A DNA stretch of 64,000 bases from assembly GCF_055900595.2 (NCBI RefSeq), contig NZ_CM148325.1. The stretch is one strand, 5' to 3'. Under the pieces are notes generated by a model, which made no database searches, had not been told where the DNA came from, and saw only the letters and a list, made by a program, of their open reading frames with translations. Both the position numbers and the translations under genes were made by a program. Shown here piece by piece: positions 23,792 through 35,167 of this stretch; the first letter of the stretch is position 1; every line of letters starts with the position of its first letter.

Positions 23792-24352
23792 ATGCCCACT
23801 CAAATTTCTGTCGACACTCTTCCTGCAATCACCCACAACCAGGTCCCCGTTATTACAACTGAACTTCTGGCGCAGTTATACGGAACAAAAATCAAAAACA
23901 TTTCTGATAACTTTCTGAACAACACGACGCGATTCGTGGTAGGAAAGCATTACTTTAAAATTGAAAAAAACGAATTACGCGAGTTTAAGAACAGACCCGA
24001 AACAATCGGGTTAGTTGGTAAAAATGCCCGCTCCCTTATCCTCTGGACAGAACGTGGCGCAGCCCGCCATGCCAAAATGCTCGAAACCGATCAGGCATGG
24101 GAAGTGTTCGAAAAACTGGAAGACTGTTATTTCAGCCAAAAACAACCACCAGCAACACAAAACTCACCCACCCCAAATGATGGATGCGCATTACTGATCC
24201 ACTTTGATAAACACGGTCAGGTAGAGTTCACAGAAAAAGTCCCCGCCGATGCGATGGTATGCACTCTGGAACGGTTTAAATTTTATCTGGAGCAACACGG
24301 CTGGCTCGTTGCCCGTAAAGAACAACTGGTGGAAAGGCTGATGCAGCTTTAG
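23792..24352 (+). CDS. ORF6N-domain phage regulatory protein (antirepressor-like)
   Basis: ORF track 23744..24352; start set at MPTQISVDTLPAI preceded by GGAG; N-terminal motif PVITTELLAQLYGTKIKNISDNFLNNTTRFVVGKHYFKI resembles the ORF6N/Rha-like DNA-binding domain. Confidence 0.6.
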   Translation: MPTQISVDTLPAITHNQVPVITTELLAQLYGTKIKNISDNFLNNTTRFVVGKHYFKIEKNELREFKNRPETIGLVGKNARSLILWTERGAARHAKMLETDQAWEVFEKLEDCYFSQKQPPATQNSPTPNDGCALLIHFDKHGQVEFTEKVPADAMVCTLERFKFYLEQHGWLVARKEQLVERLMQL

Positions 24353-24411
24353 CAGATATAACAAGTGTTTTTTCTCGTATGCACGCGCACATATGAATTA
24401 TTGTGGGGCGC

Positions 24412-24458
24412 ATGGGGGAGCCGAAAGGCTCGCCGGTTCAACTCCCGCCAGCTCCACC
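24412..24458 (+). repeat. 26-bp direct repeat copy 2 fused to a tmRNA (ssrA) 3'-end-like sequence GGTTCAACTCCCGCCAGCTCCACCA
   Basis: Exact repeat of 23672..23697, then a 25-nt stretch matching my recollection of the E. coli ssrA 3' terminus (T-arm, acceptor 3' strand, CCA). Confidence 0.55.
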
Positions 24459-24730
24459 ATTTTTGACAGGACTGCAACCGGACATCGACAATAAAAACAG
24501 ATAATTACGGACACTGACCAGACAACAAACAGACCTGAACAAGACAAAAATATACACGTGAAATGCACGTGCACTTTATAAAAACCCCAGATTTCACAGT
24601 CTGGGGTTTTTCTGTTTGTAAATAATGGTAACAAAAACACATCACCTTTTGGCGTTCCGTTCCTCTTGACACTGTTTATCCATACAGTTAAAAATAACAC
24701 TGTATACAAACACAGTGTAGAGGGATTTTT

Positions 24731-24979
24731 ATGCGTATTGAAATCTGTATCGCTAAAGAAAAATTCAGTAAAATGCCAAAAGGCTCTGTACCTGCTCTAC
24801 AACAGGAAATGTCTAGCCGTATCAGAAAACGATATGACGATGTGGAGGTTATAGTAAAATCCGCCAGTAATGACGGACTGACCATTTTAAGAGCCGTAGA
24901 TAAAGAAAACGCTCAGAAGTTCATACAGGAAACGCTGCAGGAAGTCTGGGAAACTGCTGATGACTGGTTTTTTCACTAA
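24731..24979 (+). CDS. DinI-family protein
   Basis: 82-aa [15 protein letters not shown]...[17 protein letters not shown]; the C-terminal ETWExADDWF motif is typical of DinI. Confidence 0.75.
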
Positions 24980-25362
24980 TCAGGACGTCAAATAAATAAC
25001 AACTGTAATTATTCTCTCCAAATTAACAATCTCTGTATACATACTCAGGCGTGTTCACGCATACAACACGCCTTTCTGATATTTAATTGTTTACAGAAAT
25101 ATTGCCGAATAAAAATATAAACCATAGTCTTAAAAAAATAATAATTCCACTATAGCTATCCCAGAACAACCAGTACAAATAATAAAAGACATATCACAGC
25201 AACACTCCACACTGACAGCGCAAAAATAAATGCCGCCTTTGTTATCTTCATATACAAGCAACCTGTCCTGATAATCACCAACTCATGTTTTATTCTTAAC
25301 CATTCGTCACAAATACAACAAAAAATAACAGCAGCAGCACCGATATCACAATATAAGATACA

Positions 25363-25818
25363 TTATTCAACACCTGAATCCCCCGCCGCTTCTCTCCCCT
25401 TTATAAAACGCCCCTTCCGGAATCCAGACCGCTGCAGTGCACGACGAAGATGACCGTATACCGTCTTGTCATTCTGCCCCGTCTCTTCTGTAATCTCCGC
25501 AATACTTAAACCTCTGTAATACCGGTTCAGTACCGCTCTGCGCTCTTCCAGCGTCAACACACCTCCGGCCGCTCTCAGATTCATCATCGACTTATTCAGA
25601 ATACAGCAGGCCTCTCCGGTAAAAAGAATACGAACAATATCTGTATACTCATCATCACAGAATACAAAATAATATCTGAATGACCTGCCTGACTGCACCC
25701 TTCTTCTGTCTGATATGGCATCTTCTATATATCTGATTCGACTGCTTACGGTTCCAAATATCTCTCGCAGGGCTTTTTCAAAATAAATATCTCTCGTCGC
25801 CAGGATTATATCCAGCAT
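25363..25818 (-). CDS. LuxR/GerE-type helix-turn-helix transcriptional regulator
   Basis: 151-aa ORF; C-terminal LTLEERRAVLNRYYRGLSIAEITEETGQNDKTVYGHLRRA resembles the GerE HTH; sits immediately downstream of the adhesin gene. Confidence 0.6.
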   Translation of the reverse strand: MLDIILATRDIYFEKALREIFGTVSSRIRYIEDAISDRRRVQSGRSFRYYFVFCDDEYTDIVRILFTGEACCILNKSMMNLRAAGGVLTLEERRAVLNRYYRGLSIAEITEETGQNDKTVYGHLRRALQRSGFRKGRFIKGREAAGDSGVE

Positions 25819-25879: not shown

Positions 25880-27520
25880 TCAGAACTCAAAATTCACACC
25901 AGCATTCCACGATGCGGATGACCCACCTGCAGCAACTGCAACTTTTCCTGCCACATTCTCTGTGAAACGGTAGCCCACGCCCACCGCAATGGCCTGCTCA
26001 TCACGGTAACCACCAACGGCTGCTGTCGCGTTAAATTTTCCAACACTGTATGGCTGGAAAAGACCGGCCAGTGCCGCGCTCTGGGCTGCACTCTCCCTTA
26101 ACTCCTTCCGGTTCTCTTTAATCTGCTCCTGCATATTATTCATTCTCTCTGTCGCCATCTTCTGCCAGGCTTCCGTCAAATCCAGACGATGACTGTTATT
26201 CCTTATCGCTGCTGTATTTGAGGCTATTGCTGCATCCGTCTGCGCCACCGCTGCCGATGTGACTGCAATAATATCCCTGCTGAGTTCATCACGTACTGCT
26301 GTAACCTGACTGTCAGTATGAGCACGGGCATCTCTGTATACACCGCCTATCTCACCACGCAGACTGTCTCCCTCTGCCTTCAGTTCATCACGTACTGCTG
26401 TGACCTGACTGTCAGTATGAGCACGGGCATCTCTGTATACACCACCTATCTCACCACGCAGACTGTCTCCCTCTGCCTTCAGTTCATCACGTACTGCTGT
26501 GACCTGACTGTCAGTATGAGCACGGGCATCTCTGTATACACCGCCTATCTCACCACGCAGACTGTCTCCCTCTGCCTTCAGTTCATCACGTACTGCTGTG
26601 ACCTGACTGTCAGTATGAGCACGGGCATCTCTGTATACACCACCTATCTCACCACGCAGACTGTCTCCCTCTGCCTTCAGTTCATCACGTACTGCTGTGA
26701 CCTGACTGTCAGTATGAGCACGGGCATCTCTGTATACACCGCCTATCTCACCACGCAGACTGTCTCCCTCTGCCTTCAGTTCATCACGTACTGCTGTGAC
26801 CTGACTGTCAGTATGAGCACGGGCATCTCTGTATACACCACCTATCTCACCACGCAGACTGTCTCCCTGTGATTTCACTTCAACCCCAAGGTTGCGGGTA
26901 CGATTATCCAGCTCCACGACGAATTCTTTAACAGGGACTGTCTGAGCATTTCCGTCAGCCCTTCCGTCAGCAGTGATTCGGCCTGATGAATCCAGAACAA
27001 AATTCTGGCCTTCAACTACATTTTTATACAATGATGACAATCCCGATGTTGTATTACTAATTTTAATAAAATCCTCAGCGGTACCACCAGCATTAACAGC
27101 GGCGATATAATCATCCTTGTTTTCTGGCTTGATTATTTTTTGTAGTGATTCTTTTGTATCAACAATGGACTTTATATCTTCTGCTTTTATATTTCTGATG
27201 TTTTCGGCTTTTAATGCATCTGAGTAGATGGGGTAAGTTAGCAAATCCTGAGCAACAATATGCCTAGCATTCTCAGGAGCTGCTAATATAGCACGCGTAA
27301 TAGAATCATTCGGGACAATACGCCCTGTATTAGCTCCAGTAATAGTATTAATAAGATTAACATCATTACCTTTTGATATTACTGCCGCACCATTATCATA
27401 CAGAGTAACCTCATATCCATCTACATTAAAACTCTCTTCTGCCATAACCCCCACAGAGTAACATAACAGCGCACCGGTAACCGCCATTGCCAATACATTC
27501 TTTGCCATTATAAATTTCAT
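25880..27520 (-). CDS. YadA-like trimeric autotransporter adhesin (Eib immunoglobulin-binding-family-like)
   Basis: 546 aa; signal peptide; six tandem 33-aa coiled-coil repeats; C-terminal anchor [63 protein letters not shown] resembles YadA/Eib membrane anchors. Confidence 0.75.
26283..26872. repeat. Six tandem copies of a 99-bp repeat (two alternating variants) inside the adhesin gene
   Basis: GTCAGTATGAGCACGGGC recurs at 26312, 26411, 26510, 26609, 26708 and 26807 (period exactly 99); variants alternate CACCGCC/CACCACC. Confidence 0.9.
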
Positions 27521-27955: not shown

Positions 27956-28531
27956 TCACCATCCAACCCTGTACGCCAGAATGGTTTCACTGTCACTCAG
28001 TTCTGCTATTGCCTTTTTCATCTCCCTTTGCCTTATATGTATTTCAAGGCCTTTCCTGAACATCGCTTTACCAGCAGCATCACTCAGGGATATCAGTTCA
28101 TCTGCCGTCATCGGTACATCATTATTCTCTGCGTCCGTCCAGAAAAATCCTTCCGGCAACACACCGCCTCTGGCCGCTGATGCCGACATTCCAAGACGTG
28201 TCATGGCTTCCTTTCCATAATCCCATTTCCGTCCTCTGTGCTCAAAAACATACCCTGACGCCTCCATCGCATCACGCCAGGCATTTATCTCCGCGTTTTT
28301 CATCCTGCGTGCTTCTTCCACAGCCATATCATCATTTGCCCGGTACTCACCTACCGGCCCTGCATCACCTCTTATGCAGGCTTCAAATATTTCACGACCG
28401 TAAGACTCAGGATCATCCGCACTTGCTGTAAATACACATTCTGTTTCCGCGTCTGAAAACTTCACTATACAGTTTATGGTCGTATGACCCCTGTCAGCCC
28501 ACACTGGTGACGTGATTTTATCGACCTTCAT
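27956..28531 (-). CDS. Tail fibre assembly protein (lambda Tfa-like)
   Basis: 191 aa, immediately downstream of the side tail fibre gene; Tfa-like composition and conserved Trp/Asp pattern. Confidence 0.75.
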   Translation of the reverse strand: MKVDKITSPVWADRGHTTINCIVKFSDAETECVFTASADDPESYGREIFEACIRGDAGPVGEYRANDDMAVEEARRMKNAEINAWRDAMEASGYVFEHRGRKWDYGKEAMTRLGMSASAARGGVLPEGFFWTDAENNDVPMTADELISLSDAAGKAMFRKGLEIHIRQREMKKAIAELSDSETILAYRVGW

Positions 28532-28545
28532 TCATTTCTCCCCTG

Positions 28546-30396
28546 TCACCGTATTCTCTGAAACAGGCCCCAAATCGTCCCAATGATATTATTGACTGTC
28601 ATGTTAGTTGTGCATAACATCCATGTACCAAGCATATGATTGCCAAATAAAAAGCGGATATCTGTAAGTTTATCCGATGACGACGACACAATAACGGCCT
28701 GTCTGATACGATACCCGGGTATTTCACGGGTATTTGTTACCTCATGATTTCGTTCTATGATCCCCAGAACATAAGACCCCACGGAATAAACACTTCCGAC
28801 GCTCGCTGGCTGCCCCGGCTGTCCCTGCGGACCTGCCGGGCCGCGTGCACCTGTATCGCCCTTTAGTCCCTGAGGACCTGCCGGGCCGCGTTCACCTGTA
28901 TCCCCCTTTAGTCCCTGTGGACCTGCCGGACCGCGTTCACCTGTATCGCCCTTTGGTCCCTGTGGGCCACGCTCCCCCTGGGCTCCCAGCTCTTTCCATT
29001 CAGACCAGGGGCCATTACCGGTAAAATTACCAGTAACAGTTCTTACGAACTTTCGTGGTGGGTTCCAGGTTGTATATTCATGCTGGCAATATCCCCATGC
29101 ACCAACTCTTACCTGAAGATAACCCGCTCTCTGAATCGGATAATTATTTTCTCGTGTAGCCCCACTGTCTGATGGCTGATAATAATCACCCTGATCGGTC
29201 ACTCGTCCCAGTCGGTTCAGATCACCATTCAGCAGTTGTCCACGGGCTGACTCTCCTCTTGGTCCCTGAGGGCCTTCCGGACCACGTGCACCTGTTTCGC
29301 CCTTTGCTCCCTGTGGACCTGCCGGGCCGCGTTCACCTGTTTCACCTTTTGGTCCCTGTGGACCTGCCGGGCCGCGTTCACCTGTATCCCCCTTTAGTCC
29401 CTGTGGACCTGCCGGACCGCGTTCACCTGTTTCACCTTTTGGTCCCTGTGGTCCTGCCGGGCCGCGTTCACCTGTTTCACCCTTTGCTCCCTGTGGACCT
29501 TCCGGGCCACGTTCACCTGTATCGCCCTTTAGTCCCTGTGGACCTGCCGGACCGCGTTCACCTGTTTCACCTTTTGGTCCCTGTGGACCTCCCGGATCTC
29601 CTTTATCCCCCTTAGGGCCTTTTTCTCCTCGCTCACCCTTTTCTCCCTTCAGACCCTGAGGGCCTTCCGGACCACGTGCACCTGTTTCGCCCTTTGCTCC
29701 CTGTGGACCTGCCGGGCCGCGTTCACCTGTTTCACCTTTTGGTCCCTGTGGACCTGCCGGGCCGCGTGCACCTGTTTCACCCTTTGGTCCCTGAGGACCT
29801 GCCGGGCCGCGTTCACCTGTATCGCCCTTTAGTCCCTGTGGACCTGCCGGACCGCGTTCACCTGTTTCACCTTTTGGTCCCTGTGGTCCTGCCGGGCCAC
29901 GTGCTCCTGTTTCACCTTTTGGCCCCTGTGGCCCGGTAATGCCTCTTTCACCACGTGCGCCGGTATCCCCTTTCTCTCCTCGTGGTCCCCGGGCAGATGC
30001 AGCTCGTTTCCGGGCTTCCTCCGCCTCAGATGCCGCGGACTCTGCTCTGTGCAGTATGGACTGCACCACAGCCTCCAGCTCTGACAACGCCTTCGGATAA
30101 TAAGGAGCATCTTCCATCTCCATCAGAAATTTATTCAGTGTTCCCGGTGAAGAATCCTCCCTGACCACGATATCTCCCACATACGAAGGACGGTAACCTT
30201 CTGTATTGAGTGTCACCCTGTATATTCCTGGCTCCACATCCATACTGTAACTCCCCGTCTCTTCCGGCATGCCATAAGCCACTGTCGTGGCGATGACTGT
30301 CTCGCTGGTTCTCTTCGCTTTCAGCTCAATAATGCATCCCGGTACCGGTTTTCCGGTTCCGTCCCTCAGCACGCCTGAAATTTTTACAGCCGCCAT
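28546..30396 (-). CDS. Side tail fibre protein with collagen-like Gly-X-Y repeats (lambda Stf-like N-terminus)
   Basis: 616 aa; N-terminus [29 protein letters not shown] resembles lambda Stf; long [19 protein letters not shown] collagen-like tracts. Confidence 0.85.
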
Positions 30397-30468
30397 ACTC
30401 GCTCCATAAAAAATAATCCCGCAAAATTGCGGGCGTCGTCATTCATTTACAATCGGGTGTTTTTATGA

Positions 30469-30714
30469 TTACTTCACGCACGAAACTTTCGTAAACATAT
30501 CTTCACTCACCCACTGACCATAAAATCTCGGAGCTGATACTTTATACACAGTGCCGCTTTTCGTTTCTATTTTCCCTGTAAGATCTACCGTATAAGCTCG
30601 CTGTAAAACCCCGGGACTCAGCACACCGGTGCACCGGACTCTCTCCGTAACGGAACGGTACCCCGCGCAACCTGATACAAGAAACAGCAAAAAAGTGCAG
30701 ACGATTATTTTCAT
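30469..30714 (-). CDS. Small lipoprotein, 81 aa (possible Cor-like superinfection-exclusion protein)
   Basis: Signal peptide with lipobox LVSGC; size and position just distal to J match Cor-type lipoproteins of lambdoid phages; sequence similarity unverified. Confidence 0.45.
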   Translation of the reverse strand: MKIIVCTFLLFLVSGCAGYRSVTERVRCTGVLSPGVLQRAYTVDLTGKIETKSGTVYKVSAPRFYGQWVSEDMFTKVSCVK

Positions 30715-30735
30715 TACATGCCCTCAACATAACTA

Positions 30736-31398
30736 TCAGTACGCATCATAAATTTCTGCATTTATGTAATAACAGAGGTTATTAACAACACCTGAATTAT
30801 CATTGGGCGCCGCTACGTTATCTTCAGCAAAAGTTGACTGACGCCATAACTGTGAGTTTCTGGCATTAAAACTGGCGGTATACCAGTAATAACTCTCCCC
30901 TTCCTGAACTGTCGTCCACTGGGTACACCCCGGCATTACGGCCACATCATGTCCCACACTGATCGGTACATCCTTTTCCCATATTCGCGTCATTTTTACT
31001 TCCAGTGGCAGCATTTCCGTGTTCCAGACCACCCTGCCATGACTGTCGCACAACTGTATTCCCCATTGCGGCCATACATTCACCATGTTGGCAAAAACAT
31101 AAACAACATATGTGCTGTCCTGTTCCATGCCCGGCTCCTGCCCTGTACCAGCGCTGAAAATGTCATACTGCCAGGTACCGTTAAGCTGAACCATTTCACC
31201 ATGGAAGGACTGATTACCGCTTATCTGTTTAATAAAAATCACGCAACGATAATTCGTCGGCACCCCGGTGTCGATAAACTGCATCACCGCATCACGCGCA
31301 CTCAGTGTGAAATGAAAACGGCGCACAAGGTTCAGTGGCGGCGCAACAGGTGATATCCATTCTCTCCCCCGCTCATCAGTTAATTTAAGTGCAAACAT
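30736..31398 (-). CDS. Hypothetical phage protein, 220 aa
   Basis: ORF track; Trp/Tyr-rich; sits where lambda carries lom. Confidence 0.5.
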   Translation of the reverse strand: MFALKLTDERGREWISPVAPPLNLVRRFHFTLSARDAVMQFIDTGVPTNYRCVIFIKQISGNQSFHGEMVQLNGTWQYDIFSAGTGQEPGMEQDSTYVVYVFANMVNVWPQWGIQLCDSHGRVVWNTEMLPLEVKMTRIWEKDVPISVGHDVAVMPGCTQWTTVQEGESYYWYTASFNARNSQLWRQSTFAEDNVAAPNDNSGVVNNLCYYINAEIYDAY

Positions 31399-31658
31399 CA
31401 GATCCCCCTTATCATGACCAGCACGGGTCTTAGCCAGCTTGTGTTGGCATAGTGCACTGTCCAGCCGGATACACTGGCACTGGTATGACTTCCCTGACCG
31501 TTAATCAGAATGGCCGGTGAACAGACTTCCAGACGCCAGCCCTGCAAAGGAGTATAAGAACGCTGCCCCGTCCCTTCAGTGATCACATCCAGCACCCCTG
31601 TTGGGTTTATTTCATGTGTCACAAGGCGCCCTTTGCGCCATACCCGGACTCCGAACAT
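31398..31658 (-). CDS. Hypothetical phage protein, 86 aa
   Basis: ORF track; start overlaps the J stop; coupled to the downstream ORF. Confidence 0.45.
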   Translation of the reverse strand: MFGVRVWRKGRLVTHEINPTGVLDVITEGTGQRSYTPLQGWRLEVCSPAILINGQGSHTSASVSGWTVHYANTSWLRPVLVMIRGI

Positions 31659-34600
31659 TACAGTCTCCCCAGTCGTACTCTTAACACATTGTTATCGTCA
31701 TATACGTCGATTCGCTCGCCATTGAAAAACAGGCGGCCTGCGCCGGGCCTTCCTGAGTTAATTTCAAGGCTGCCGTTTCTTGATAAACGCCACCCCGGAC
31801 TACCGGAATGAAAATTATCTGACCGGATATCTCCCGTCACTCTGGCAAAATCCACGGTCAGTTTTTTCATGAAAACATCATTCATGAACAGCTGATCACC
31901 CTGAGCCACAAACAAAGGTGTTGTATTGCCATTTTCCGGGTTAATCATCACAATACGATCTGCCTGCATCAGGATCTGACTCTGAATTCCGTCAGACGTA
32001 TTTTCGATTCCGGCACCAATACCTGCAATATAGAGACGTCCATCCCGTGTCTGCTGCAGCTTCACAGCCCACATGCTGTTCAGGTTCCGGCGCGTGTCCT
32101 CCTGAACTTTCTGTATCTGCTCAATGCTGGCATTCCAGGATCCCAGTTTTTTATCCGTGCTCTGTTTGATCTGACTTCCCTTATCATCAACATACTGTCT
32201 GATCTGCGCTATCTGTCGGCTGTTCTCCTCCGTGCTCCTGCTTACTGTCTGCCGGATTTCGCTGCCCATCCTGTCAACTTTTCTGTCAACTTCCGCAATG
32301 GCCATTGACTGTTCACCGCTCTTTTTCGCCACAACCGTACTTATTTCCGCACTTTTATCATCAACATACTGCCTGACCTGCGCTATCTGTCGGCTGTTCT
32401 CCTCCGTGCTCCTGGTTACTGTCTGCCGGATTTCACTGCTCACGCTGTCAACTTTCCTGTCGACTTTCGCAATGGCCAGCGACTGTTCACCGCTCTTTTT
32501 CGCCACCAGTTCCGTTATGCTGTTTTCAGACGCCGTGATTTTTTTCGTCACCTCTGCGATATCACGCTCCGCACGCTGCCTCACATCTTTCTCCAGCTGC
32601 GTCATTTCGCGGTTAATCTCATTCTCCAGTTGCTCAACTTCAGTGCGCAGTGCAGAGGCATCAATGCGTTCATTGATCTCCCGTCCCAGATGCGTTTTAT
32701 TTATCGCCCCCCTGAAAAAATTAAGGTAAGCGGCAGGATCATTACTCGGTTGACCGACTGCCTCCACGAATGCCGATTTACCGACAGTGTTAACACTGCG
32801 GATATAAAAGTAATAATCATGGCCCGGCTTAATATTGATACTGGCGGCTATCCAGTACAGCGCCGTGCCAAGATAGCGGGCTGTGGTTTCAACCTGCCTG
32901 ATATCGGTAATCCGCGTTTCCGAGAACCAGAACTCAAACTGTACCGTCGGGTCATAAACGGCAAGATGCGGCGTGGCGGTTATCTGAAAATAGCCCGGCG
33001 TCAGCTCAATCCGCGACGGCGCTGCCGGTGCGGCAATCCGGAACGATACCGACGCCGGGTCTCCCTGCTGCCCCCGGGCATTTACCGCCCGGACCGTCAG
33101 CGTGTAACGCCCCAGCGCCAGTTGCCTGAAGCGGTATGTGGTTTCCGTCGTCCGGGCCGTGCTGACCAGCCGCTCACTGCCGTCATCCGCTGCCACGGTC
33201 AGGCGAAGCAGGAAGCTCACGCCCTTCACCACCTTCGGCGTGTCCCAGCGCGCCAGCACCTGATATTCCCCGCTGTCTGCGGTGACTTCTGCGGTCAGGT
33301 GCTGCACCGCTGGCGGCGTGACACCATTCACCGTTCCGCTCTGGTCGCCGTCAAAGTGCGCCCCGTTATCCACGATGGCCTCTTTTTCCGGTACATGCTG
33401 CACGGCAGTGATGGCATACGTGCCGTCGTCGTTCTCACGGATACTCACGCAGCGGAACAGGCGCTGGCGCAGCGTCGGCAGCTTCAGCCCCCACACGCTG
33501 TATTCAGCAACGCCGTCAGGAACACTGCTCACTTTCACCTTCACGCCGTCAGTGACGGACTGAACCTCCACGCTGACCGGATTGCCACTTCCGTCAACCA
33601 GGCTTATCAGCGTGGTACCGGAGGATGGCAGCGTGATTTCACGATCGAGCGTCAGCGTCCGGGTCTGGCTGTTCACCGCCAGCACGCGCCCACCGGTGCT
33701 GATACCGGCATAGTCATCATCACAGATTTCAATGACATCGCCCGGCACATGGCGAAGCCCTTCGGCACCCACGCTGAAGTCCACGGTCTGCGTTTCCAGC
33801 AGCTCCGTTTTAATCAGCCACAGCCCGGCGCGGTGTGCCTGCCCCCGGCTGGTACAGCCAAAGGCATCCATCTTCGTGACGTTACGACCGTAACGGGCAA
33901 TGGCCTGCGTGTCCTCCACAAGCTCTGTCGCCGTCTCCTGGCCGTTATCCGGGTCACTCCAGTTCACCTCAACGGCATTATGGCGGTCCTTCAGGGCGCT
34001 GAAGCTGTAGCGGAACGGCGCGCCATCATCCGGCATCACCACATTACTGCGGTTATAGGTCCACACCTTATCCGACGGTCGGTCCTGCACGAACGTCAGC
34101 GTCTGCCCGTTCCATACCGGCATACAGCGCATCGCCGAGCAGAAATCACTGAGCACATCCCACGCCTTACGCTGCCTGGTCAGCCAGGCATTACAGGTGA
34201 TGCGCGGCTCCGTGCCACCAGAGCCGTCCGGCACCGACTGGTCGCAGTACTGGCCGATGACATACAGCGCCCATTTGTCCACATCCGCTGCGCCAACACG
34301 TTTCCCCATGCCGTAGCGCGGGTGGGTCAGCATATCCCACAGACACCAGGCCGGGTTATCGCTGTATGCCGGTTTAAACGTTCCGTCCCAGATACCGCTG
34401 TATTGCCGCGTCTGCGGGTTATAGTTCGACGGCACCTGCAGAATGCGCCCGCGAAAATGATAATTACGGCTCACCTGCTGGCTGCCGAACTCCTCCGAAT
34501 CCACCTGCACACCGACCAGTGCCGTGTTCGGGTAGCACTGTTTCACATCGATGATTTCGGTGTATGACGACCAGAGCGTTTTGTTCTGCAGCTGGTCTGT

Positions 34601-35167
34601 GGTGCTGTCCGGTGTCATCCTGCGCATCCGGATATTGAACGGGCGCGGCGGCAGGTTATCCACCACCACCGAAGCCAGATACTGTGAAGTGGTTTTTCCC
34701 TTAATGGTGATGTCTTTTTCCGTTAACCAGCGACCGTTACGCTGTATCTGAACCAGCAGGCGGACTTCCGACGGATTCCGGTCCCCCTTTGAGGTGGTTT
34801 CCACCAGTGCCTGCACACCGAAGGTCAGGCGCAGACGGTCGATGTTTGCCGACGTGATGGTCCGGGTAATCGGCGTGTCGTACTTCACTTCCGTACCCAG
34901 CACCGTCTCGGAGCCGGAGGATTCAAATCCCTCCGGCGGCGTCTGCTCCTGCTCACCGGCCCGGAACACCACCGTGACGCCGGAGATATTGGTATTCCCC
35001 TCACTGTCCAGCACCGGCGTACCGTTCAGCAGCACGCTTTTTAATCCATCCACCGGTCCTTGTATCGGCCCTTCGCTGATGACATCGATCACACTCAGCA
35101 ACTGCGTGGACTTCAGGTTGTCCTTCGCTTCGCGCGGGGTATGCCCCTTACTGCTGCCTTTACCCAT
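31658..35167 (-). CDS. Tail tip host-specificity protein (lambda J-like)
   Basis: 1169 aa; N-terminal two-thirds resemble lambda J; C-terminal region divergent with an internal duplicated ~49-aa segment. Confidence 0.9.

What the first reader, a model, noticed from the sequence alone, without database searches (positions are those of the whole stretch)
30469..31658. Non-lambda three-gene module between J and the side tail fibre, including a Cor-like lipoprotein candidate
Where lambda has lom, this prophage has an 86-aa ORF translationally coupled to a 220-aa Trp/Tyr-rich protein and then an 81-aa lipoprotein (lipobox LVSGC). The position immediately distal to the receptor-binding tail genes is where lambdoid phages place superinfection-exclusion lipoproteins such as Cor, and other accessory genes. 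None of the three has a function I can assign from sequence.
Basis: inference. Interest (0 to 1): 0.45.

Follow-up and report, generated by a model that had tools for sequence, protein, structure and literature searches.

The report
Phage receptor-binding genes plus Cor lipoprotein
The three small genes after the tail-tip gene J of this E. coli prophage are a very divergent copy of the known phi80/N15/T1 "gp22-gp23-cor" cassette: two proteins that most likely form the phage's detachable receptor-binding tip, and a lipoprotein that most likely blocks the same receptor from inside the cell. It is a known kind of module whose receptor is still unknown.

Summary
On the minus strand, J (31658..35167) is followed by an 86-aa ORF (TAATG overlap with the J stop), a 220-aa ORF (TGATG overlap), an 81-aa lipoprotein (VSGC lipobox), an intrinsic terminator, and then the side tail fibre.

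The module is not an orphan. It has the same gene order as J-gp22-gp23-cor-tail fibre in phi80 and N15, and the same genes follow J in T1 (cor inverted there). All three proteins are significant but remote homologues of that cassette, at 17-34% identity.

ORF81 is a true Cor homologue. Its mature part alone scores 23 bits against a Cor profile, and 0 of 500 shuffles reach that.

ORF220 is only 19% identical to the FhuA-linked gp23 proteins, which share 52-64% with each other. The receptor is therefore undetermined.

Verdict: a new, divergent member of a known kind.

The parts
31658..31852 (-). Last 64 codons plus stop of J: a phi80-type C-terminal end (...[19 protein letters not shown]), the probable docking site for the separate receptor-binding proteins.
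   Evidence: Protein similarity to a lambda-type J (L020) stops at ...FMKKLTV, 64 aa before the end. The lambda-type J continues for about 195 aa and is followed by Lom. The megablast breakpoint lies at about window 31857. Every J-like protein that precedes a gp22/gp23 pair ends in I-x-V-x-D-x-(N/S)-(G/N)-x-L-R-V-x-(I/V)-G-(R/K). The end aligns with the phi80 J C-terminus.
31398..31658 (-). ORF86: a gp22-like small protein (phrog_557), the probable N-terminal or adaptor half of a two-chain receptor-binding protein.
30736..31398 (-). ORF220: a gp23-like protein (phrog_425), the probable receptor-binding protein body.
30469..30714 (-). ORF81: a Cor-family outer-membrane lipoprotein, the probable superinfection-exclusion factor. 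It is not annotated in RefSeq.
   Evidence: Signal peptide plus VSGC lipobox, with two conserved mature Cys residues (C28, C79). PHROG Cor E 8e-7 and phrog_27799 E 1.2e-8. NCBIfam lamb_exclu_cor scores 28.4 bits against a cutoff of 31. It is 32% identical to phi80 Cor, E 1e-9. The mature-only profile score is 23.1 bits, with 0 of 500 shuffles reaching it. PGAP has no CDS here.
30721..30725 (-). GAGGG ribosome-binding site, 6 nt upstream of the ORF81 ATG.
   Evidence: Read directly from the minus-strand sequence.
30408..30433 (-). Intrinsic terminator (CCCGCAATTTTGCGGG plus a T-run) between the lipoprotein gene and the side tail fibre gene.
   Evidence: Terminator scan. phi80 and N15 each have an annotated terminator at the equivalent place after cor.

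Best explanation
The region is a host-recognition cassette of the phi80/N15/HK022/T1 type (gp22-gp23-cor), present here as a very divergent allele.

Proposed mechanism:
1. J in this prophage lacks the lambda-type C-terminal receptor-binding domain. It ends instead in a short phi80-type segment.
2. ORF86 and ORF220 are translated in tandem with J through overlapping stop/start codons. They assemble into a two-chain, all-beta receptor-binding protein that docks on that J end and binds an outer-membrane beta-barrel protein of E. coli to trigger DNA injection.
3. [quoted passage not shown] There, like Cor and T5 Llp, it binds the same receptor from the periplasmic side. Incoming phages that use that receptor, and progeny released at lysis, then cannot adsorb.

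The last 64 codons of J and the three genes appear to move together as one exchangeable unit.

Shown here: the gene anatomy, the homology of all three proteins to the cassette, the predicted fold match of ORF220 (and of ORF86+ORF220) to a solved RBP, and the mosaic boundaries.

Inferred: virion location, heterodimer formation, docking on J, exclusion activity, and the receptor. My estimates for the receptor are a TonB-dependent transporter about 0.55, and FhuA specifically about 0.35.
For: - Gene order: it is identical to phi80 and N15 (J, about 100 aa, about 224 aa with overlapping start, cor, terminator, tail fibre). The same genes follow J in T1, Fostie and Midgardsormr38.
- Homology: ORF220 hits phrog_425 at E 3.3e-27, ORF86 hits phrog_557 at 2.8e-4 and scores 20.5 bits against a shuffle maximum of 7.0, and ORF81 hits Cor models at about 1e-6 and scores 23.1 bits mature-only against a shuffle maximum of 4.7.
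- Size and register: the Oekolampad RBP gene encodes 321 aa, close to 86+220=306, and lies next to its exclusion lipoprotein downstream of J. A weak profile match (E 0.03) falls in the register expected for gp23 corresponding to the C-terminal two thirds.
- Protein features: neither ORF86 nor ORF220 has a signal peptide or TM segment.
- Co-transfer: the whole triad recurs at 48-63% identity behind the tail-tip gene of Stx-phage-like prophages. The J 3' end plus the three genes occur in only 7-9 of 5426 E. coli genomes, while the first ~2.5 kb of the J gene (about 820 codons) matches in 4628. GC content drops from about 0.6 to 0.45-0.5 across the unit.
- Replacement of the lambda domain: a lambda-type J with the same body carries an extra ~195-aa C-terminal domain followed by Lom.
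- Literature: the locus downstream of gpJ encodes RBPs with cognate exclusion lipoproteins (PMC8594841; bioRxiv 10.64898/2026.04.02.716166). The RBP and the exclusion factor were shown structurally for LptD (bioRxiv 10.1101/2025.07.07.663478). The cor cassette is consistently linked to FhuA use (PMC13164509).
Against: - No experiment or virion proteomics for gp22/gp23-like proteins was found. The T1 in-situ structure does not resolve the distal tip.
- The link to the Oekolampad RBP is at fold level only (10-11% identity). Sequence and profile searches of the PDB do not find it, and hhalign gives only E 0.03.
- The heterodimer rests on a single-chain AlphaFold2 model with an artificial linker and only 10 paired rows. 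I could not inspect coordinates or PAE, so the gain in aligned residues could come partly from a better ORF220 model.
- ORF81 is below the NCBIfam Cor cutoff (28.4 against 31 bits).
- No promoter above chance was found for ORF81, so expression from the repressed prophage is not shown.
- The authors of PMC13164509 suggest that the two upstream proteins are membrane proteins involved in exclusion.
Confidence: 0.75

Rival explanations
1. It is simply a classical FhuA-specific cor cassette. ORF86/ORF220 bind FhuA, and ORF81 excludes FhuA-dependent phages (T1, T5, phi80), exactly as in phi80, N15 and HK022. This is a special case of the best explanation, with the receptor fixed.
For: Every characterised phage with the full gp22-gp23-cor triad uses FhuA: T1, HK022, N15, ES18, phi80 and 10 BASEL phages (PMC13164509). 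ORF81 is almost as close to phi80 Cor (34%) as T1 Cor is (38%).
Against: ORF220 is 19% identical to phi80, N15 and T1 gp23, which share 52-64% with each other. At a 30% threshold its cluster holds only itself and two uncharacterised E. coli relatives, so it falls outside the >30% identity criterion used to define the FhuA RBP family (10.64898/2026.04.02.716166). Relatives of gp23 occur in Stx phages without cor. A Cor-plus-gp23-like locus is reported for BtuB-using phages. The same fold binds LptD in Oekolampad.
Confidence: 0.35
2. ORF86 and ORF220 are not virion proteins. [quoted passage not shown]
For: The PHROG family names, and the assumption stated in PMC13164509. The genes are tightly linked with cor in many phages.
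Against: Neither protein has a signal peptide, lipobox or hydrophobic segment. They are translationally coupled to J within the late tail operon. The pair occurs without any cor gene in Yersinia phage P400, Klebsiella phage Roth93, JenP2 and Stx phages. The predicted fold matches a solved RBP.
Confidence: 0.1
3. ORF81 is an unrelated moron lipoprotein, for example a Bor-like or Lom-like host-fitness factor, with no role in phage exclusion.
For: It sits at the moron-prone position between J and the side tail fibre. It scores below the curated NCBIfam Cor cutoff.
Against: It shows significant similarity to Cor in the mature domain alone (23.1 bits, 0 of 500 shuffles). The Cys pair, size and position are conserved. 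It is inherited together with the RBP pair in a different prophage type. No Pfam family, including Bor and Ail/Lom, matches it.
Confidence: 0.07

Closest known systems
gp22-gp23-cor cassette of phi80, N15, HK022, ES18 and T1 (the 'extended cor cassette')
   Same: The gene order, sizes and overlapping gp22/gp23 start match. So do the position between J and the side tail fibre, the terminator after the lipoprotein gene, and the phi80-type J C-terminal end. All three proteins are detectable homologues.
   Different: Identity is only 17-22% for ORF86, 19% for ORF220 and 28-34% for ORF81. The gap before the lipoprotein gene is 21 nt here, against about 110 nt in phi80 and N15. The receptor is unknown, whereas all characterised members use FhuA.
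Oekolampad (Bas18) RBP bas18_0025 with exclusion lipoprotein bas18_0026 (PDB 9RPT; Rtp45 for phage Rtp)
   Different: The Oekolampad RBP is one chain, whereas here there are two. There is no significant sequence similarity. The Oekolampad genes are convergent to J. Its exclusion lipoprotein is unrelated to Cor (-0.5 bits). Its receptor is LptD.
T5 pb5 (RBP) with Llp (exclusion lipoprotein) acting on FhuA
   Same: The logic is the same: a separate RBP at the tip of a straight fibre, plus a small outer-membrane lipoprotein that blocks the receptor from the periplasm (PMC9586334, cited).
Lambda-type J C-terminal receptor-binding domain followed by lom
   Same: It occupies the same place in the tail operon. 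The body of J is about 92-95% identical at DNA level to lambda-type J genes in 4628 E. coli genomes.
   Different: In lambda-type phages the receptor domain is the last ~195 aa of J itself and Lom follows. Here J stops 64 aa after the shared region, and separate genes take over. None of the three proteins shows Lom homology.
orf63/orf64 of short-tailed Stx phages (VT2-Sakai, 933W group)
   Same: A gp22-like and gp23-like pair follows a tail-tip protein that ends in the same VRIGRL motif. A variant of these prophages carries the closest known relative of the whole triad seen here.
   Different: Canonical Stx phages have lom and no Cor-like gene after the pair. ORF220 is 21% identical to orf64.

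Membership tests
Cor superinfection-exclusion lipoprotein (PHROG 1119; NCBIfam NF047972 lamb_exclu_cor) | Signal peptide with lipobox Cys; small mature protein (total 75-90 aa) | tested here: met
   The N-terminus is MKIIVCTFLLFLVSGC, the protein is 81 aa, and +2 is Ala.
Cor superinfection-exclusion lipoprotein (PHROG 1119; NCBIfam NF047972 lamb_exclu_cor) | Two conserved Cys residues in the mature part (one near the N-terminus, one near the C-terminus) | tested here: met
   C28 and C79 are invariant in the alignment with phi80, N15, T1 and tonn Cor.
Cor superinfection-exclusion lipoprotein (PHROG 1119; NCBIfam NF047972 lamb_exclu_cor) | Profile score above the curated family threshold | tested here: not met
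   NF047972 scores 28.4 bits against a cutoff of 31 (E 1.2e-6). Homology itself is significant: PHROG Cor E 8e-7, and the mature-only score of 23.1 bits is reached by 0 of 500 shuffles. ORF81 is therefore a divergent homologue and not an 'equivalog'.
Cor superinfection-exclusion lipoprotein (PHROG 1119; NCBIfam NF047972 lamb_exclu_cor) | Gene located next to the gp22/gp23 pair downstream of J | tested here: met
Cor superinfection-exclusion lipoprotein (PHROG 1119; NCBIfam NF047972 lamb_exclu_cor) | Confers exclusion of FhuA-dependent phages and inactivates FhuA | not testable with these tools
   This needs plating assays with cloned ORF81.
gp23-like protein (PHROG 425, 'membrane associated protein') | Full-length profile match and conserved core and C-terminal motifs | tested here: met
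   E 3.3e-27 over residues 1-218 of 220. Y100, F102, A153, I212 and Y217 are invariant across 41 sequences.
gp22-like protein (PHROG 557, 'outer membrane protein') | Profile match, N-terminal (Y/F)G-x-x-x-W motif, and a gene immediately before and overlapping gp23 | tested here: met
   PHROG E 2.8e-4. Its own profile gives 20.5 bits against a shuffle maximum of 7.0. The motif and the overlap are seen.
FhuA-specific RBP family of Drexlerviridae and relatives (as defined in bioRxiv 10.64898/2026.04.02.716166) | [quoted passage not shown] | tested here: not met
   ORF220 is 19% identical to T1, phi80 and N15 gp23, which share 52-64% with each other. I take gp23 to be the protein that paper calls the FhuA RBP; that step is an inference.
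Oekolampad-type RBP fold (PDB 9RPT chain C) | Structural similarity well above background | tested here: met
Oekolampad-type RBP fold (PDB 9RPT chain C) | Detectable sequence homology | tested here: not met
   A profile search of the PDB finds nothing. hhalign gives E 0.03 with probability 1.7%.
Ail/Lom outer-membrane protein (what lambda has at this position) | Pfam Ail_Lom match; beta-barrel with signal peptide | tested here: not met
   No Pfam hit for any of the three proteins. ORF86 and ORF220 have no signal peptide.

The most novel reading that the evidence does not exclude
This allele recognises an outer-membrane protein other than FhuA, possibly one not yet known as a coliphage receptor, and ORF81 is a Cor-type lipoprotein retargeted to that protein.

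More generally, the gp22+gp23 pair of T1, phi80 and N15 would be a two-chain form of the same RBP fold that Oekolampad uses as a single chain on LptD. In that case the RBP families downstream of gpJ that are currently described as 'unrelated' would share one origin, and the long-unidentified FhuA-binding protein of T1 and phi80 would be this heterodimer.
Probability: 0.3. Interest if true: 0.55.

Novelty: new member of a known kind. Interest (0 to 1): 0.33.

Why it matters
- **Annotation:** the three genes are labelled 'hypothetical' on roughly 1000 E. coli contigs, and the lipoprotein gene is missing from RefSeq annotation. They can now be named a gp22/gp23-type receptor-binding pair plus a Cor-family exclusion lipoprotein.
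- **Phage biology:** the allele is far from every cultured phage (28% identity or less across 50,697 phage records). It is therefore a candidate for a new receptor specificity with a matching exclusion factor, which is useful for receptor-prediction models and for swapping host-range modules.
- **Structure:** the fold match to the Oekolampad RBP supports the RBP role of gp22/gp23 against the rival view that they are exclusion accessories. It suggests a split/fused relationship between RBP families that have been treated as unrelated.

Tried and rejected
**Searches that found nothing or too little**
- DNA-level search of the module against 50,697 phage records gave no match.
- Pfam gave only sub-threshold noise, Inhibitor_I78 and RHS.
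- Sequence searches of the PDB with each protein found nothing usable.
- A profile of 41 gp23-like proteins against the PDB hit only neopullulanase, at E 1.2.
- The Cor profile against the PDB hit T5 Llp only at E 0.11, mostly through the signal peptide. I do not claim Cor/Llp homology from this.
- The word-indexed protein search found only 2 clusters. The exhaustive search was needed to reach the family.
- hhalign of the gp22 and gp23 alignments against the Oekolampad RBP gave E 0.16 and 0.03. These are not significant, and I use them only as consistent with the expected register.
- The promoter scan found 1 site against 2.3 expected by chance. Reading the 3' end of ORF220 by eye gave no convincing sigma-70 promoter for ORF81.
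- BFVD fold hits are all uncharacterised proteins, so they give no functional information.

**Literature dead ends**
- The T1 in-situ structure does not resolve the distal tip.
- The J. Virol. 2023 FhuA paper treats J itself as the RBP.
- Wietzorrek et al. 2006 is not held in the library.
- The mEpimmI paper and the lambdoid co-transfer paper had nothing on gp22 or gp23.

**Readings considered and rejected**
- Lom or Bor analogue, a spanin, and chance ORFs.

Full report
**1. What is in the sequence**

All genes lie on the minus strand, in this order:

| Feature | Coordinates | Note |
|---|---|---|
| J | 31658..35167 | 1169 aa |
| ORF86 | 31398..31658 | ATG overlaps the J stop (TAATG) |
| ORF220 | 30736..31398 | ATG overlaps the ORF86 stop (TGATG) |
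| GAGGG ribosome-binding site | 30721-30725 | in the 21-nt gap before ORF81 |
| ORF81 | 30469..30714 | lipoprotein |
| Intrinsic terminator | 30433..30418 plus T-run | |
| Side tail fibre | 28546..30396 | collagen-repeat |
| Tail-fibre assembly protein | 27956..28531 | DUF4376 |

- ORF81 begins MKIIVCTFLLFLVSGC, a signal peptide plus lipobox.
- ORF86 and ORF220 have no hydrophobic segment. ORF220 is 9.1% Trp+Tyr.
- The host is E. coli, and the prophage lies next to mltF-tadA-yfhH.
- RefSeq calls ORF220 and a shortened 74-aa ORF86 'hypothetical', and does not call ORF81. In public protein sets all three are 'hypothetical' or 'uncharacterised' on about 1000 E. coli contigs.

**2. The ORFs are real genes**

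A 52%-identical relative of ORF220 (P0002) sits in E. coli prophages with the gene order of short-tailed Stx phages. There it follows a 421-aa tail-tip protein and is flanked by an 86-aa ORF (63% identical, same overlapping ATG) and an 81-aa lipoprotein (48% identical; lipobox and Cys pair retained).

The conserved first 12 residues show that the 86-aa start is correct, not PGAP's 74-aa start.

**3. What the module is**

phi80 and N15 have the same order: J, gp22 (100 aa), gp23 (224-225 aa, overlapping start), cor (77-78 aa), terminator, tail fibre. T1 has ST33(J)-ST32-ST31, with cor on the opposite strand. Fostie and Erwinia phage Midgardsormr38 have the same triad. The Drexlerviridae phage tonn has lipoprotein-gp22-gp23 convergent to J.

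The window's proteins are remote but significant homologues:

| Protein | Evidence of homology |
|---|---|
| ORF220 | phrog_425 E 3.3e-27 over its full length; aligns end to end with 40 relatives |
| ORF86 | phrog_557 E 2.8e-4; 20.5 bits against a profile of eight other gp22 proteins (maximum of 500 shuffles 7.0) |
| ORF81 | PHROG Cor E 8e-7; NCBIfam Cor E 1.2e-6 (28.4 bits, just below the curated cutoff of 31); 32% identical to phi80 Cor (BLASTP) |

With the signal peptide removed, ORF81 still scores 23.1 bits against a profile of mature Cor domains. None of 500 shuffles reaches that (maximum 4.7), and the unrelated Oekolampad exclusion lipoprotein scores -0.5.

No Lom, Bor or other Pfam family matches any of the three.

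**4. What ORF86 and ORF220 do**

The PHROG names ('outer membrane protein', 'membrane associated protein') are not backed by any export signal.

- An AlphaFold2 model of ORF220 built on the 41-sequence alignment is confident: pLDDT 89.3, pTM 0.87, all-beta.
- That RBP is encoded directly downstream of the J-like gene of Oekolampad, next to its exclusion lipoprotein. It is 321 aa long, close to 86+220=306.
- I then modelled ORF86-(G4S)6-ORF220 on an alignment with 10 paired rows plus unpaired gp23 relatives. The result had pLDDT 79.8 and pTM 0.80 despite a disordered 30-residue linker.
- A weak profile hit (E 0.03) places the family's core motif Y-x-F-x-N...G...N..G...PL on Oekolampad residues 197-255. 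That is the register expected if gp23 corresponds to the C-terminal two thirds and gp22 to the N-terminal third.

Together these results suggest that the gp22/gp23 pair is a two-chain version of the single-chain Oekolampad RBP. This is an inference from predicted structures. I could not inspect coordinates or PAE, and sequence methods alone do not detect the relationship.

**5. How the pair is attached**

The first ~2.5 kb of the J gene (about 820 codons) is ordinary lambdoid J, present at 92-95% DNA identity in 4628 of 5426 complete E. coli genomes. One breakpoint lies at about window 32690-32710, where GC falls from about 0.6 to about 0.5. A second lies at about 31857.

Beyond the second breakpoint, the last 64 codons of J plus the three genes are found in only 7-9 genomes.

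A sister J (L020) shares the sequence up to ...GDQIFMNEVFLKYLT. It then continues with about 195 aa of lambda-type C-terminal domain and is followed by Lom.

The window's J instead ends in ...[19 protein letters not shown]. All eleven J-like proteins I checked that precede a gp22/gp23 pair end in the same I-x-V-x-D-x-N-G-x-L-R-V-x-(I/V)-G-R motif.

So the lambda-type receptor domain plus lom has been replaced here by a docking end, a separate RBP pair and a lipoprotein. This fits the published picture that RBPs are attached non-covalently to J-like proteins and are encoded downstream with cognate exclusion proteins (PMC8594841). It also fits the finding that the J tip co-varies with the RBP (bioRxiv 10.64898/2026.04.02.716166).

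**6. The lipoprotein**

By homology, ORF81 should act like Cor: an outer-membrane lipoprotein that inactivates the phage receptor from the periplasmic side. Cor is reported to exclude FhuA-dependent phages, and T5 Llp does this structurally on FhuA (PMC13164509; PMC9586334). For LptD, the analogous Rtp45 was shown to bind inside the barrel (bioRxiv 10.1101/2025.07.07.663478).

I found no promoter for ORF81 above chance. It may therefore be made mainly with the late tail operon, protecting progeny from debris as proposed for Llp and Cor. Expression in the lysogen remains to be shown.

**7. Which receptor**

This is not settled.

- All characterised carriers of the full triad use FhuA.
- However, ORF220 is 19% identical to phi80, N15 and T1 gp23, which are 52-64% identical to each other. 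At a 30% threshold it clusters only with two uncharacterised E. coli relatives.
- The exhaustive search of 1.84 billion representatives found only 41 relatives at E<1e-3, the nearest at 50% and then 31%.
- No cultured phage in the phage collection exceeds 28% identity.
- The gp23 fold family is not tied to one receptor. It is reported with BtuB users, it occurs in Stx phages without cor, and the same fold binds LptD.
- ORF81 is nearly as close to phi80 Cor (34%) as T1 Cor is (38%), which keeps FhuA or another TonB-dependent transporter plausible.
- A side observation points the same way. In the locus of the nearest outgroup (P0006, 31% identical), the place of cor is taken by a secreted 85-aa TonB_C-domain protein.

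My estimates are: TonB-dependent transporter about 0.55, FhuA specifically about 0.35.

**8. Comparison with known systems and novelty**

The cassette as a kind is known (Wietzorrek 2006 as cited; PMC8594841; PMC13164509). This copy is a new, highly divergent member with no characterised close relative.

Membership in the gp22, gp23 and Cor families is met at the level of homology. It is not met for the curated Cor 'equivalog' threshold or for the FhuA-RBP identity criterion.

Two things here may go beyond the papers I could read:
- the fold link between gp23 (plus gp22) and the solved Oekolampad RBP. The 2026 preprint calls the RBP families unrelated, and the KanT1 paper reports no structural hits;
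- the demonstration that the triad together with the J end is exchanged between lambdoid siphovirus-type and Stx-type prophages.

**9. Verdict**

The two upstream genes are not unassignable accessory genes; they are most likely the phage's receptor-binding tip.

This is an ordinary kind of module in an unusual allele. Interest is moderate to low (0.33). It would be higher only if the receptor proves to be new.

Noticed in passing
L021:3696-3953 (minus strand), NCBI GCA_020268605.1 CP084225.1: Next to the gp22/gp23-like pair of the nearest outgroup of ORF220 (P0006, 31% identical) there is a convergent gene in the position where T1 has cor. It encodes an 85-aa secreted protein made of a TonB C-terminal domain (Pfam TonB_C, 51.3 bits against a cutoff of 24.6). 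It could be a different kind of exclusion factor, a TonB mimic acting on a TonB-dependent receptor.
   Followed up: partly
window 30469-30714: The Cor-like lipoprotein gene is not annotated in the RefSeq/PGAP record of an identical prophage (NZ_CP100500). In the same record ORF86 is called 12 codons short, from a GTG, which cuts off the conserved N-terminal motif.
   Followed up: yes
window 26283-26882, within ORF 25880..27520 (minus strand): There are six near-perfect 99-bp tandem repeats (33-aa units) inside a YadA-like adhesin gene at the prophage end. The protein is 546 aa here and 469 aa in strain LH50-c, so the copy number varies between strains.
   Followed up: partly
window 28821-29931, within the side tail fibre gene 28546..30396 (minus strand): Long arrays of 45-bp repeats encode collagen-like Gly-X-Y triplets in the side tail fibre. 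The gene length differs slightly between carrier strains (616 aa here, 604 aa in LH50-c).
   Followed up: no
window 32181-32506, within J: A 174-bp unit is repeated 1.9 times (92% match) in the coiled-coil part of J ([18 protein letters not shown]...[20 protein letters not shown]). This part lies inside the lower-GC mosaic segment of J.
   Followed up: no
window 31658-31720, 31600-31658, 31340-31398; also L003, L004, L011, L019: The J C-terminus ([12 protein letters not shown]), the gp22-like N-terminus (FGVRVWRKGRLV; YGIQTWDASGKP in phi80) and the gp23-like N-terminus (FALKLTDERGREW) share a short pattern, h-x-h-x-(D/W)-x-x-G. The same pattern opens the Oekolampad RBP (GAGILIDYNDGRP). It may be a repeated beta-hairpin used for chaining the three proteins; this is unexplained.
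   Followed up: no
L005-L008 (E. coli prophages with Stx-phage gene order): In these prophages the canonical orf63-orf64-lom segment is replaced by the 86/220/81-aa triad, followed by a hok/gef toxin gene. This shows exchange of the whole host-recognition cassette between phages with different tail types.
   Followed up: partly
window 25363-25818 (minus strand) and about 24,000-25,000: A sigma-factor-like HTH protein and a DinI-like gene sit at the prophage end, beyond the YadA-like gene. phi80 and Fostie also carry a dinI-like gene just after their tail fibre genes.
   Followed up: no
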